From sequence record MK482688.1: a stretch of 64,000 bases of DNA. The stretch is one strand, 5' to 3'. The DNA is from Escherichia phage vB_EcoM_LMP25. The position numbers were made by a program, and so were the translations under genes. The notes under the pieces are model-generated. The model saw nothing but the letters and a program-made list of their open reading frames with translations. It did not search any database and was not told where the DNA came from. Shown in pieces: positions 53,833 to 54,674 of the stretch. The first letter of the stretch is position 1. Each line of letters opens with the position of its first letter.

Positions 53833-53963
53833 CCAGACCGTTGTTTATCATCTTAAGTGCTACCATTACACCAACTCGACATCTGCCGAGTGAAGGAATC
53901 GAACCTTCGCCTTTTCTTTACCGAGAAATAGATTGTTTAAGTTTTGCTGTAAACGGTCTTCTG
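53833..53963. repeat. tRNA-spacer repeat, copy a (CCAGACCGT ... TTGCTGTAAACGGTCTTCTG), interrupted by the tRNA fragment
   Basis: Same terminal arms as copies b-d but with about 100 nt between them. Confidence 0.6.
53885..53909 (-). pseudogene. tRNA 3'-half fragment (T-arm plus 3' acceptor strand only)
   Basis: GAAGG-AATCGAA-CCTTC is a canonical T-arm in reverse complement, preceded by a 7-nt acceptor-like strand, but no complementary 5' acceptor strand, D-arm or anticodon arm within 100 nt. Confidence 0.45.
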
Positions 53964-53976
53964 TAAATTTGTTGAG

Positions 53977-54052
53977 CCAGACCAAGTTTTAAATTTTTCA
54001 AAATTAAATTGGCTTGAAATTTTCATACGTTCTTGCTGTATTTGGTCTTCTG
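53977..54052. repeat. tRNA-spacer repeat, copy b (CCAGACCAA ... TTGCTGTATTTGGTCTTCTG)
   Basis: Inverted arms AGACCAA / TTGGTCT around an AT-rich loop of about 55 nt. Confidence 0.65.
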
Positions 54053-54113
54053 CTCCTTTAAAGGATACTCGTAAGAACCCTTTAAGGGAGGGGCTAAATA
54101 GCCCTCTCAAAAT

Positions 54114-54191
54114 TGGCGGTTACGAAGGGATTTGAACCCTCATCATCTCCCGTGACAGGGGAGTATTTTAACCAAATTAAACTACATAACC
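54114..54191 (-). tRNA. tRNA-Asp (GTC)
   Basis: Perfect anticodon stem CTCCC/GGGAG with loop CTGTCAC; acceptor GGTTATG/CGTAACC. Confidence 0.75.
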
Positions 54192-54196
54192 TTTAT

Positions 54197-54284
54197 TGGT
54201 GTGCCGTGTAGGAGTCGAACCTACCGAGTCTCAATGACAAGGGATTTACAGTCCCCACCGCTACCATCTACGGGATAACGACAC
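54197..54284 (-). tRNA. tRNA-Tyr (GTA), type II
   Basis: Acceptor GTGTCGT/ACGGCAC, anticodon stem GGGGA/TCCCT with loop CTGTAAA, long variable arm, 88 nt. Confidence 0.7.
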
Positions 54285-54353
54285 ATTTAATTTCTATTCA
54301 GGCTAAGGACTTGCACCTTACAAATCGGTGAGCAATCGCTTCTCTCCTAAATT

Positions 54354-54430
54354 TGGCGGTTAGTCAGGGATTCGAACCCTGTGCCATTCGCTTAACAGGC
54401 GACCGCACATACCTTATGTGCTTCCTAACC
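54354..54430 (-). tRNA. tRNA-Asn (GTT)
   Basis: D-stem GCAC/GTGC, anticodon loop CTGTTAA, T-stem CAGGG/CCCTG. Confidence 0.7.
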
Positions 54431-54443
54431 ATGTTTAGTATTA

Positions 54444-54508
54444 CCAGACCGTATATTTCAATTTTTTCCGCTAAAAATTTAATAAATATTGCTGTAAACG
54501 GTCTTCTG
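54444..54508. repeat. tRNA-spacer repeat, copy c (CCAGACCGT ... TTGCTGTAAACGGTCTTCTG)
   Basis: Inverted arms AGACCGT / ACGGTCT around an AT-rich loop of about 45 nt; ends 6 nt before the next tRNA. Confidence 0.65.
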
Positions 54509-54514
54509 TAAATT

Positions 54515-54591
54515 TGGAGGCGGGTGCAGGAGTCGAACCTGCCGATACCATGCTAATGAGACATGTGAGACGCCCTTTCTCTATACCCGCA
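54515..54591 (-). tRNA. tRNA (CAT), second CAT-anticodon gene; Met or Ile2
   Basis: D-stem GAGA/TCTC, anticodon stem CATGT/GCATG with loop CTCATTA (unusual T37), T-arm GCAGG-TTCGACT-CCTGC, unpaired 1-72. Confidence 0.55.
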
Positions 54592-54602
54592 ATTCTTAAT
54601 GA

Positions 54603-54674
54603 CCAGACCAAATATCTTCTTTGTCCGATTAACTTTCAGATGAGTAGATTAAGTTTGCTGTAATTGGTCTTCTG
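54603..54674. repeat. tRNA-spacer repeat, copy d (CCAGACCAA ... TTGCTGTAATTGGTCTTCTG)
   Basis: Inverted arms AGACCAA / TTGGTCT; ends 7 nt before tRNA-Glu. Confidence 0.65.

What the first reader, a model, noticed from the sequence alone, without database searches (positions are those of the whole stretch)
53833..54674. Family of four tRNA-spacer repeats with covarying inverted arms
Copies at 53833-53963, 53977-54052, 54444-54508 and 54603-54674 share CCAGACC(GT/AA) ... TTGCTGTA(AAC/TTT/ATT)GGTCTTCTG. The dinucleotide change GT to AA in the left arm is matched by AC to TT in the right arm, preserving a 7-bp stem AGACCNN/NNGGTCT around an AT-rich 45-55 nt loop. In copies c and d the right arm ends 6-7 nt from the 3' end of the neighbouring tRNA. 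They could be RNA processing signals, attenuators, or remnants of a small mobile element.
Basis: seen in the sequence. Interest (0 to 1): 0.65.

Follow-up and report, generated by a model that had tools for sequence, protein, structure and literature searches.

The report
Phage Y-like RNAs beside Ro-like gene
The four repeats are genes for small structured RNAs, one of which mimics a tRNA; they sit in a Felix O1-type phage's tRNA cluster just downstream of a gene for a ring protein shaped like the Ro60 autoantigen, and the same RNA-protein gene pairing recurs in very different phages, pointing to an undescribed branch of the Ro/Y-RNA particle family.

Summary
Four copies of CAGA-AGACCNN-N2-ACAGCAA ... 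NNGGTCT-GG lie on the minus strand, the strand of the tRNAs, against 0.22 expected by chance.

- **Not mobile.** They hold fixed slots in the tRNA array of all Felixouna-, Susp- and Moogleviruses examined.
- **RNA on the tRNA strand.** Every stem substitution among orthologues gives a G·U pair on that strand.
- **Copy a is tRNA-like.** It encloses a variable hairpin, T arm, capped acceptor-like hairpin with three compensating sequence versions, and D arm. That order matches bacterial YrlA Y RNAs.
- **Partner gene.** The gene 337 nt upstream (DUF2828 + DUF7788, 471 aa) models with pLDDT 89.5. Its 11 best solved-structure matches are all Ro60.
- **Wider family.**
  - In 78 distant phage loci with homologues, the stem + (A/U)CAGCAA pattern occurs 94 times on the gene strand, 27 on the other and 12.6 in shuffles, mostly within 600 nt of the gene.
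  - 28 of the 48 loci that carry elements near the gene have no tRNA gene within 3 kb.
  - A covariance model built from copy a alone finds 37 relatives, all on the gene strand.
  - Mycobacterium, Listeria and Campylobacter phages show the same elements.
- **Not described.** No Rfam family or searched paper covers this RNA.

Most likely these are Y-RNA-like partners of a Ro60-like protein. Binding and function are inferred, not shown.

The parts
54603..54674 (-). Copy d, short Y-like RNA (72 nt). CAGA 54674-54671; P1 5' strand AGACCAA 54670-54664; ACAGCAA 54661-54655; P1 3' strand TTGGTCT 54611-54605; GG 54604-54603.
   Evidence: Fixed slot between tRNA-Glu and tRNA-Met in all relatives. Hit by model R1 at E 1.3e-5.
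54444..54508 (-). Copy c, short Y-like RNA (65 nt). P1 5' strand AGACCGT 54504-54498; ACAGCAA 54495-54489; P1 3' strand ACGGTCT 54452-54446.
   Evidence: Slot between tRNA-Met and tRNA-Asn. R1 hit at E 5.4e-6. The orthologue alignment keeps P1 with a single G·U change.
53977..54052 (-). Copy b, short Y-like RNA (76 nt). P1 5' strand AGACCAA 54048-54042; ACAGCAA 54039-54033; P1 3' strand TTGGTCT 53985-53979.
   Evidence: Slot 61 or 87 nt after tRNA-Asp and 13 nt before copy a. Not reported by R1 at E<=1.
53833..53963 (-). Copy a, long Y-like RNA with a tRNA-like module (131 nt). P1 5' strand AGACCGT 53959-53953; ACAGCAA 53950-53944; P1 3' strand ACGGTCT 53841-53835.
   Evidence: R1 self-match, 146 bits.
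53913..53928 (-). Copy a, variable-arm-like hairpin (UUUCU-CGGUAAA-GAAA).
   Evidence: Present in the MFE fold. Not recovered in the RNAalifold consensus, so support is weak.
53892..53908 (-). Copy a, T-arm-like hairpin GAAGG-UUCGAUU-CCUUC.
   Evidence: Partial Rfam tRNA match to model positions 43-63, 14.9 bits. Five pairs, kept in 17 of 18 distinct sequences (one breaks the fifth pair).
53874..53891 (-). Copy a, capped acceptor-like hairpin ACUCGGC-AGAU-GUCGAGU.
   Evidence: Three sequence versions in relatives, all complementary: ACUCGGC/GUCGAGU, ACACG(U)-UACG-(G)CGUGU, and ACCCUUC-GCCAAACA-GAAGGGU. Three pairs show changes on both sides.
53857..53871 (-). Copy a, D-arm-like hairpin GUGU-AAUGGUA-GCAC, preceded by UG (U8-like).
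   Evidence: Four pairs, invariant.
55012..56427 (-). Gene for the 471-aa Ro60-like ring protein (Pfam DUF2828 + DUF7788; vWA MIDAS residues D279, S281, S283, T349, D381). Proposed protein partner of the RNAs.
54873..54902 (-). Sigma-70-like promoter (TTGACA-18-TAAAGT with TG) upstream of tRNA-Pro. Probable start of the tRNA / Y-like RNA transcript.
   Evidence: consensus scan only.
54965..54993 (-). Second sigma-70-like promoter (TTGACA-17-TAATAT), overlapping a terminator-like hairpin (55001-54970) that follows the Ro-like gene.
   Evidence: consensus scan only.
53684..53832 (-). Adjacent 149-nt conserved structured RNA: a long closing helix of about 23 pairs and an inner hairpin CAGAC-CUUAAGCAA-GUCUG that echoes the P1 + AGCAA motif. 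Possibly a fifth, divergent relative.
   Evidence: (I3), 73, 74: 32 predicted pairs, 7 with changes on both sides.

Best explanation
The four repeats are genes for small non-coding RNAs of the Y-RNA kind.

**Expression.** They are transcribed on the minus strand as part of the phage's early tRNA precursor. They are presumably cut out by the enzymes that free the flanking tRNAs.

**Constant module.** Each RNA has a 7-bp helix formed by its two ends (5'-AGACCNN / NNGGUCU-3'). The helix begins A-U, G-C. It is followed on the 5' strand by two nucleotides and single-stranded ACAGCAA, and on the 3' strand by G.

**Variable module.** In b, c and d this is an A/U-rich loop. In copy a it is a circularly permuted tRNA-like domain in the order variable arm, T arm, capped acceptor hairpin, D arm.

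**Proposed partner.** The constant module is proposed to be the binding site for the Ro60-like ring protein (DUF2828/DUF7788, HEAT-repeat ring plus vWA domain) encoded 337 nt upstream on the same strand.

**Proposed function.** By analogy with Ro60-Y RNA particles, the RNAs would gate or tether the ring protein. That would direct it, perhaps with host exonucleases, to misfolded or damaged structured RNAs such as tRNAs during infection.

**Shown here:** the RNA structure, its strand, its conservation, its genetic linkage to the protein family, and the protein's fold.

**Inferred:** excision from the precursor, physical binding, and the biological role.
For: 1. **The repeats are specific.** Four exact copies against 0.22 expected. 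A consensus derived from unrelated phages finds exactly these four in 64 kb, all on the minus strand, with 0.03 expected.
2. **Fixed synteny** across three genera.
3. **Strand evidence.**
   - Every single-site stem change among orthologues is wobble-compatible on the tRNA strand only: AGGCC, AGACU, AGACCGA/UUGGUCU, AUGGUCU.
   - Distant relatives have fully compensated stems, for example GGACUGU/ACAGUCC and AGAAGCU/AGCUUCU.
4. **Copy a consensus fold.** P1 7 bp, T arm 5 bp, acceptor-like hairpin 7 bp with 3 pairs changed on both sides, D arm 4 bp. ARAGORN calls a tRNA only after circular permutation.
5. **Same module order as YrlA** (PMC4201824, read).
6. **The upstream protein has a Ro60 fold.**
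   - The AlphaFold model has pLDDT 89.5 and pTM 0.89.
   - The 11 best PDB matches are all Ro60/TROVE proteins, E 3e-8 to 9e-7, TM 0.48-0.68 over 510-559 columns. The next matches are vWA domains only.
   - The MIDAS residues are invariant in 49 homologues.
7. **Linkage in 78 distant loci.**
   - 94 pattern hits on the gene strand, 27 on the opposite strand, 12.6 in shuffles.
   - 64 of the 94 lie within 600 nt of the gene.
   - Positions the search did not require are conserved: the stem starts A-U in 57/79 and G-C in 66/79, and the 3' neighbour is G in 69/79.
   - 28 of the 48 loci with elements near the gene have no tRNA gene within 3 kb.
8. **Model R1**, built from Ounavirinae copy a only, gives 37 hits at E<=1 in distant loci, all on the gene strand.
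   - It also hits Mycobacterium phage Gabriela at E 1.3e-7, directly after its annotated 'Ro-like RNA binding protein'.
   - The same elements are visible next to the homologues in Listeria phage A511 and Campylobacter phage PC14.
9. **Co-absence.** Erwinia Kolesnikvirus lacks both the gene and the elements in the 8-kb stretch examined.
Against: - No binding, expression or end-mapping data exist.
- The canonical Ro60-binding motifs (GGUCCGA, or GNCGAAN0-1G in YrlA) are absent.
- No Rfam Y RNA or other family matches.
- The protein resembles Ro60 by fold only. Pfam TROVE, phmmer and a family profile against PDB sequences find nothing.
- 30 of the 78 distant loci gave no strict pattern hit near the gene.
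- The interiors of b, c and d have no well-supported conserved structure.
- Folding energies of the single sequences are only modestly below shuffles (z -0.7 to -2.1).
- Within the window the arm covariation has just two states.
- The pair counts on alignment A2 come from rows that were selected for pairing, so they are not independent evidence.
Confidence: 0.7

Rival explanations
1. The hairpins are cis-acting signals in the polycistronic tRNA precursor. They would be landing or blocking sites for RNase E, RNase III or 3' exonucleases that set tRNA ends or stabilise the precursor, with no dedicated protein partner.
For: They lie 6-13 nt from tRNA ends in a transcript with no internal terminators. 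All four share flanks resembling the AAUUU trailers after other tRNAs.
Against: In 28 of the 48 distant loci with elements near the gene, they abut the Ro-like gene with no tRNA within 3 kb. A conserved single-stranded ACAGCAA and a whole tRNA-like domain are not needed for a cleavage signal. Most tRNA junctions in the same array, with 2-7 nt spacers, lack them. The related Erwinia phage processes Met-Asn with an 8-nt spacer and no element.
Confidence: 0.1
2. They are tRNA-mimicking decoys or sponges that act on their own, for instance by soaking up host anticodon nucleases, tRNA-modifying enzymes or RNase P. The neighbouring Ro-like gene would be only loosely related.
For: Copy a has intact T- and D-loop signatures and a 7-bp acceptor-like helix. 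The Mooglevirus version even has G-CCA after the 3' acceptor strand. tRNA-targeting defences and phage tRNA counter-measures are well documented; examples appear in PMC12916289.
Against: Three of the four copies have no tRNA-like part yet keep the constant stem + ACAGCAA module, which is the feature that tracks the protein gene. No anticodon-loop mimic is present.
Confidence: 0.1
3. They are decayed or rearranged tRNA genes: pseudo-tRNAs, or true circularly permuted tRNA genes whose products are re-joined. They would persist only because the tRNA array is recombination-prone.
For: ARAGORN recognises a tRNA in the permuted copy a. An unpermuted cloverleaf relative exists in another phage (L048 7566-7686).
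Against: Purifying selection is evident: compensatory changes in the acceptor-like hairpin, an invariant T loop and an invariant constant module across genera. No 7-nt anticodon loop can be reconstituted. The Rfam tRNA model matches only the T arm, at 14.9 bits against a threshold of 29. Copies b-d contain no tRNA remnants.
Confidence: 0.05
4. They are remnants of a small mobile element with terminal inverted repeats (MITE or REP-like), or target sites of the homing endonucleases common in phage tRNA regions.
For: Inverted termini CCAGACC/GGTCTTCTG and multiple copies within 850 bp.
Against: No copies occur elsewhere in 64 kb. Positions are identical in all relatives, with no presence/absence polymorphism. 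Substitutions respect RNA wobble on one strand. Orientation is always that of the adjacent protein gene.
Confidence: 0.03

Closest known systems
Bacterial YrlA / YrlB Y RNAs bound by Ro60 (Rsr) in Salmonella Typhimurium and Mycobacterium smegmatis (Chen et al. 2014, PMC4201824)
   Same: - Encoded within about 1.2 kb of, and on the same strand as, a Ro60-fold protein gene.
- A helix formed by the 5' and 3' ends, with a conserved single-stranded motif next to its 5' strand.
- Several RNAs per locus, one with a tRNA-like domain in the order V, T, acceptor-like stem-loop, D, and others without it.
- Some versions have a 7-bp acceptor helix, as in the RNase P-cleaved M. smegmatis YrlA.
   Different: - The conserved motif is (A/U)CAGCAA after an AG-initiated helix, not GNCGAAN0-1G.
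- No match to any Rfam model.
- The partner protein is a DUF2828/DUF7788 protein that TROVE sequence models do not recognise.
- The RNAs are embedded in a phage tRNA array.
- Binding is untested.
Thermus phage phiLo Ro60 with Yrl1/Yrl2, and Ro60/Y RNA-like pairs of cluster C mycobacteriophages, CcrColossus and Bacillus phage G (PMC12135203; PMC4201824)
   Same: Phage-encoded Ro60-fold ring protein with adjacent Y-like RNA genes. phiLo Ro60 (PDB 9kop, 9l5y) is among the best structural matches of the window's protein.
   Different: Those proteins are recognisable TROVE proteins and their RNAs carry the CGAA motif. The present family differs in protein sequence family and in RNA motif. It is spread over other phage groups: Ounavirinae, Listeria, Staphylococcus and Enterococcus phages (A511 is a Herelleviridae member), Campylobacter Fletchervirus, Faithunavirus mycobacteriophages such as Gabriela, and Vibrio phages.
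Circularly permuted tRNA genes of the red alga Cyanidioschyzon merolae (own knowledge, not checked here)
   Same: The 3' half (T arm, 3' acceptor strand) precedes the 5' half (5' acceptor strand, D arm), joined by a short linker. The outer ends pair.
   Different: No anticodon loop or bulge-helix-bulge junction can be formed. Bacteria lack the splicing endonuclease. The outer helix carries a conserved family-specific motif instead.
Stable RNAs 'species 1 and 2' (RNA C and D) in the phage T4 tRNA cluster (own knowledge, not checked here)
   Same: Small stable non-tRNA RNAs co-transcribed and co-processed with phage tRNAs. Their function has long been unknown.
   Different: No sequence or structural relation was tested. 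I know of no DUF2828 homologue in T4.

Membership tests
Y RNA / YrlA-type Ro60-associated RNA | Encoded close to (within 4 kb), and on the same strand as, a Ro60 orthologue | tested here: met
   The elements lie 337-1180 nt downstream of the 471-aa gene on the same strand. That protein's model matches only Ro60 structures over its full length. Caveat: the similarity is by fold, not by the TROVE sequence model.
Y RNA / YrlA-type Ro60-associated RNA | Helix formed by the 5' and 3' ends, enclosing a large loop or module | tested here: met
   P1 of 7 bp appears in all four copies and in every MFE fold. It is kept in orthologues and compensated in distant relatives.
Y RNA / YrlA-type Ro60-associated RNA | Conserved Ro60-binding sequence GGUCCGA (animals) or GNCGAAN0-1G (bacteria) near the 5' end | tested here: not met
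   The 5' region reads CAGAAGACCNNNUACAGCAA. The family consensus is AG-stem, NU, (A/U)CAGCAA. This is a different motif in the equivalent place.
Y RNA / YrlA-type Ro60-associated RNA | tRNA-like domain with V, T, acceptor-like stem-loop and D in that order (YrlA only) | tested here: met
   Copy a only. Copies b-d lack it.
Y RNA / YrlA-type Ro60-associated RNA | Match to a curated covariance model | tested here: not met
   No Rfam 15 family matches apart from a 14.9-bit partial tRNA hit on the T arm.
Y RNA / YrlA-type Ro60-associated RNA | Physical association with the Ro60 protein | not testable with these tools
   Needs immunoprecipitation or gel-shift assays.
Ro60 / TROVE protein (for the neighbouring gene) | HEAT-repeat ring plus C-terminal vWA domain with a MIDAS site | tested here: met
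   The 11 best Foldseek matches are all Ro60, E 3e-8 to 9e-7, TM up to 0.68. D-x-S-x-S, T and D are invariant in 49 homologues.
Ro60 / TROVE protein (for the neighbouring gene) | Match to the Pfam TROVE model, or sequence similarity to solved Ro60 proteins | tested here: not met
   Pfam gives DUF2828 + DUF7788 only. Neither phmmer nor a 49-sequence profile finds any Ro60 chain in the PDB.
tRNA | Cloverleaf with a 7-nt anticodon loop and free acceptor ends, reaching the detectors' thresholds | tested here: not met
   ARAGORN finds nothing in the native sequence. Rfam tRNA scores 14.9 bits against a gathering score of 29, on the T arm only.
Circularly permuted tRNA gene | 3' half upstream of 5' half, and an anticodon arm restored by joining the ends | tested here: inconclusive
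   The topology is met. The call needs a 40-nt 'intron' and a long variable arm, and no credible anticodon loop results.
Mobile repeat (MITE / REP-like) | Variable presence and position among related genomes; copies dispersed in the genome | tested here: not met
   Slots are identical in all loci. No other copy exists in 64 kb.
Intrinsic terminator / attenuator | G+C-rich hairpin followed by a U run on the transcribed strand | tested here: not met
   The scan finds no such site on the minus strand between 54870 and 53434.

The most novel reading that the evidence does not exclude
DUF2828/DUF7788 proteins and the 'AG-stem + (A/U)CAGCAA' RNAs form a previously unrecognised, very widespread phage ribonucleoprotein class parallel to Ro60-Y RNA. 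The protein is present in at least 709 sequenced phages, including Felix O1, Listeria phage A511 and phages of Staphylococcus, Campylobacter, Vibrio and Mycobacterium.

Its modular RNAs (bare, tRNA-like permuted, tRNA-like unpermuted, and other cargo domains) would recruit the ring protein to tRNAs. In this reading the particle acts as a phage counter-measure that rescues or clears tRNAs damaged by host tRNA-cleaving immune systems. In some lineages the tRNA-like module would be opened by RNase P and given a CCA end.
Probability: 0.3. Interest if true: 0.85.

Novelty: new variant of a known kind. Interest (0 to 1): 0.72.

Why it matters
Ro60-Y RNA particles are a classic but still poorly understood RNA quality-control system, known in animals, in about 5% of bacteria and in a few phages.

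If this reading is right, a sequence-divergent sister family with its own RNA signature is common in phages, including model and therapeutic ones. It has been hidden behind the labels 'DUF2828', 'vWFA protein' and 'RNA-binding protein', and its RNA genes have gone unannotated or been mis-called as tiny ORFs.

- It gives a defined protein and a 20-nt RNA module to test for binding.
- It explains conserved 'spacers' in phage tRNA arrays.
- It offers natural examples of both permuted and unpermuted tRNA mimics attached to the same module.
- It makes the question of what Ro-like particles do for a virus testable in E. coli and Salmonella genetics.

Tried and rejected
- **Rfam scans** of 49000-56000 (E<=1) and 53684-54113 (E<=10) returned only tRNAs and noise.
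- **Small self-cleaving ribozymes.** I considered hammerhead, hairpin and similar ribozymes because of CAGAAG/GUCUGG. No Rfam hit appeared and the core motifs are absent, so I dropped it.
- **Promoter readings.** I tried UUUACA of the motif as a -35 box, and the plus-strand TTGCTGTA as a MotA-like box. The downstream hexamers are not conserved among copies, and only copy c gives a weak 9/12 scan hit.
- **Single-sequence structure prediction** of the protein was useless (pLDDT 44.5). It was repeated with an alignment.
- **Short-form covariance model.** The MAFFT alignment of 29 short elements (A4) split the 3' strand, so no model was built from it.
- **Alignment A2** shows 100% pairing, but only because its rows were selected for pairing. 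It is reported as descriptive only.
- **Interior hairpins of b, c and d** look plausible by eye. RNAalifold does not recover them.
- **The DUF5681 gene** upstream of the Ro-like gene co-occurs only in close relatives (7 loci), so it is not a general partner.
- **Literature searches** for DUF2828, DUF7788, and Ounavirinae or Felix O1 with Ro60, TROVE or Y RNA found nothing relevant. The supplementary phage list of Chen et al. 2014 is not held.
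Full report
**What is there.** The window is 100% identical over the queried 1.4-kb stretch (53600-55000) to Escherichia phage vB_EcoM_LMP34, a Felixounavirus. All 25 tRNA genes lie on the minus strand. Read on that strand, the four repeats are 5'-CAGA-AGACCNN-NU-ACAGCAA ... NNGGUCU-GG-3'. The 20-nt left part occurs exactly four times and nowhere else in 64 kb, even with three mismatches allowed (4 found, 0.22 expected). Two points need correction. The relevant strand is the minus strand. Copy a does not enclose an AT-rich loop but a 111-nt structured insert.

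**Behaviour in relatives.** A pattern scan of viral contigs returned 36 loci, about 30 of them Ounavirinae. Eight annotated Felixouna-, Susp- and Mooglevirus records were added.
- In every locus that spans the region, the elements occupy the same slots: Glu-7-[d]-11-Met-6-[c]-11/13-Asn and Asp-61/87-[b]-13-[a]-~149-Lys. They are therefore orthologous genes, not mobile insertions.
- Their lengths drift by single nucleotides (c 60-67, d 65-73, b 72-77 nt). This rules out the small ORFs that some records annotate over them.
- Every substitution seen in the helix among orthologues gives a G·U pair on the minus-strand transcript: AGGCC, AGACU, AGACCGA with UUGGUCU, and AUGGUCU. On the other strand these would be C·A mismatches. 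The helix is therefore an RNA helix in the tRNA-sense transcript.
- Sigma-70-like promoters sit upstream of tRNA-Pro at 54902 and 54993. No terminator-like site interrupts the minus strand down to the next promoter at 53434. Co-transcription with the tRNAs is thus likely but not shown.

**Copy a is a tRNA mimic with permuted topology.** Its MFE fold and the RNAalifold consensus of 18 distinct orthologues agree on four helices:
- the closing helix P1, 7 bp;
- a T arm, GAAGG-UUCGAUU-CCUUC;
- a capped acceptor-like hairpin, 7 bp;
- a D arm, GUGU-AAUGGUA-GCAC.

The acceptor-like hairpin exists in three unrelated but internally complementary versions: ACUCGGC/GUCGAGU, ACACGU-UACG-GCGUGU and ACCCUUC-GCCAAACA-GAAGGGU. 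Three of its pairs change on both sides. ARAGORN calls a tRNA only when the sequence is circularly permuted. Rfam's tRNA model sees only the T arm, at 14.9 bits. The order (5' helix strand, variable hairpin, T, acceptor-like stem-loop, D, 3' helix strand) is the order described for bacterial YrlA Y RNAs (PMC4201824).

**The neighbouring gene.**
- The ORF at 56427-55012 on the minus strand encodes 471 aa and ends 337 nt upstream of copy d. It matches Pfam DUF2828 and DUF7788 and PHROG 850, 'RNA-binding protein'.
- Sequence searches find no solved relative.
- An AlphaFold model made with 49 homologues is confident, with pLDDT 89.5 and pTM 0.89.
- The model's 11 best matches among solved structures are all Ro60 proteins: Xenopus, human, Deinococcus Rsr and Thermus phage phiLo. 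They align over 510-559 columns with E 3e-8 to 9e-7 and TM 0.48-0.68. The next matches are isolated vWA domains.
- The MIDAS residues D-x-S-x-S, T and D are invariant.
- The phage therefore encodes a Ro60-fold ring protein directly upstream of RNAs with Y-RNA architecture.

**The linkage holds far beyond this phage.** Homologues at 39-55% identity were located in 78 other loci.
- A strict pattern was used: a 7-nt strand, 2 nt, NCAGCA(A/T), then within 170 nt the fully complementary 7-nt strand. It hits 94 times on the strand of the gene, 27 times on the other strand and 12.6 times in shuffles.
- 64 of the 94 hits lie within 600 nt of the gene, and 48 loci have at least one hit near the gene.
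- Features the search did not require are conserved among the 79 hits that lie near the gene. The helix starts A-U (57/79) and G-C (66/79), the spacer ends in U, and the base after the helix is G (69/79).
- 28 of the 48 loci have no tRNA gene within 3 kb. The RNAs therefore follow the protein gene, not tRNAs.
- That family consensus, applied back to the window, finds exactly copies a-d.
- A covariance model built only from the 18 Ounavirinae copy-a sequences finds 37 places in the distant loci at E<=1, 21 of them below 0.01, all on the gene strand. It also finds copies c and d of the window.
- The protein occurs in 709 phage records from many host phyla.
- In three records inspected by eye the same elements flank the gene:
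  - three after the 'Ro-like RNA binding protein' of Mycobacterium phage Gabriela, one of them hit by the model at E 1.3e-7;
  - three before gp57 of Listeria phage A511;
  - two before the gene in Campylobacter phage PC14.
- In the 8-kb stretch of Erwinia Kolesnikvirus examined, the DUF5681 gene that precedes the Ro-like gene in the window is followed directly by the tRNA array. That stretch contains neither the Ro-like gene nor the elements.

**How it most likely works.**
- *Shown:* a conserved RNA with a constant module (helix + ACAGCAA + G) and a variable module. Also shown are its genetic coupling to a Ro60-fold protein family and its placement in an early, tRNA-rich transcription unit.
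- *Inferred from established Ro60 biology* (PMC4201824, PMC12135203): the constant module is the protein's binding site. In Ro60, the 5' strand of the Y RNA helix and the adjacent conserved bases are what the protein reads. The variable module, here a tRNA look-alike, engages other factors or gates the ring.
- *Inferred role:* the particle acts on misfolded or damaged structured RNAs, possibly with host PNPase. Release from the precursor by RNase P at the next tRNA and by RNase E or exonucleases behind the previous tRNA is also inferred.
- A role in countering tRNA-directed host defences is attractive but speculative. Cluster L mycobacteriophages that carry the protein also encode an RNA ligase and a polynucleotide kinase (PMC13148394).

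**Rivals.**
- *Processing signal:* contradicted by the tRNA-free loci and by the absence of the elements at most tRNA junctions.
- *Free-standing tRNA decoy:* does not explain b-d.
- *Pseudo- or truly permuted tRNA:* contradicted by selection on the constant module and by the lack of an anticodon loop.
- *Mobile repeat:* contradicted by strict synteny.

**Known or new.** Phage Ro60 proteins with Y-like RNAs are known in cluster C mycobacteriophages, CcrColossus, Bacillus phage G and Thermus phiLo. Those are canonical TROVE proteins, and their RNAs carry the CGAA motif. Here the protein belongs to a different sequence family and the RNA motif is different. Rfam 15 has no model that matches. No paper in the searchable library connects DUF2828/DUF7788, Felix O1 or Ounavirinae with Ro60 or Y RNAs. 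Annotators have labelled the protein 'Ro-like' or 'RNA-binding', so the protein assignment is not new; the cognate RNA family appears to be. I class it as a new variant of a known kind.

**Caveats.** There are no expression or binding data. The literature search is limited to open-access texts, and the 2014 supplementary phage list could not be read. 30 of the 78 loci had no strict hit near the gene. The pair statistics are circular by construction.

Noticed in passing
window 53684-53832 (minus strand): The 149-nt spacer between copy a and tRNA-Lys is itself a conserved structured RNA. It has a closing helix of about 23 pairs with compensatory changes, plus an inner hairpin CAGAC-CUUAAGCAA-GUCUG (CAAAC...GUUUG in Moogleviruses) that resembles a miniature P1 + AGCAA module. 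No Rfam match.
   Followed up: partly
window 53029-53112 and about 52803-52890 (minus strand): Two tRNA-like sequences that ARAGORN does not call. The first has a 7-bp acceptor, a UCU anticodon arm, a long variable region, a T arm and CCA, but apparently no D arm; Rfam gives only a weak tmRNA-model hit. Related phages have an ARAGORN-called tRNA-Arg(UCU) in the same Ile-Ser interval. The Ile-Ser interval is about 96 nt longer here.
   Followed up: no
L048 7566-7686: A distant phage with a DUF2828 gene carries an unpermuted relative: a cloverleaf with an open acceptor stem ending G-CCA and D, V and T arms. At the anticodon position it has a P1-like hairpin (AACUUCU-UAG-AGAAGUU) followed by UUACAGCA. 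Both circular permutations of the same design therefore exist.
   Followed up: partly
L058 ~3133-3235, L060 ~145-283, L062 ~1261-1376, L063 ~1406-1521, L070 ~3730-3831: Some long members of the RNA family carry, in place of the tRNA-like domain, a different conserved cargo: ...GAACCUUUCUGGAGGGGAAAGCAAAAACUCGCCAAAA. This suggests several module types on the same constant stem.
   Followed up: no
window 54053-54113 (minus strand); also L038, L039, L047 spacers: The 61-nt spacer after tRNA-Asp holds two hairpins. One has the loop motif GGUUCUUACGAG, which recurs in tRNA-array spacers of Erwinia, Citrobacter and Yersinia relatives. Only one exact copy exists in the window.
   Followed up: partly
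window 53406-53434, 54873-54902, 54965-54993, 56467-56496 (minus strand): A repeated promoter cassette (AAAAAAGTT..TTGACA, 17-18 nt, TAnnnT) precedes the Ro-like gene, the tRNA array (twice) and the region after tRNA-Ile. The one at 54993 overlaps a terminator-like hairpin that follows the Ro-like gene.
   Followed up: partly
L001 (MK482690) features at locus 5166-5267 and 5338-5511; similar calls in other records: Database records annotate short 'hypothetical protein' CDSs across copy b, copy a and the 149-nt RNA. Single-nucleotide length variation and RNA-type substitutions indicate these are spurious gene calls.
   Followed up: partly
window 56509-56880 (minus strand): A DUF5681 gene directly upstream of the Ro-like gene is conserved in that position in a Yersinia phage and in one metagenomic relative. 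In Erwinia Kolesnikvirus it abuts the tRNA array with no Ro-like gene between.
   Followed up: partly
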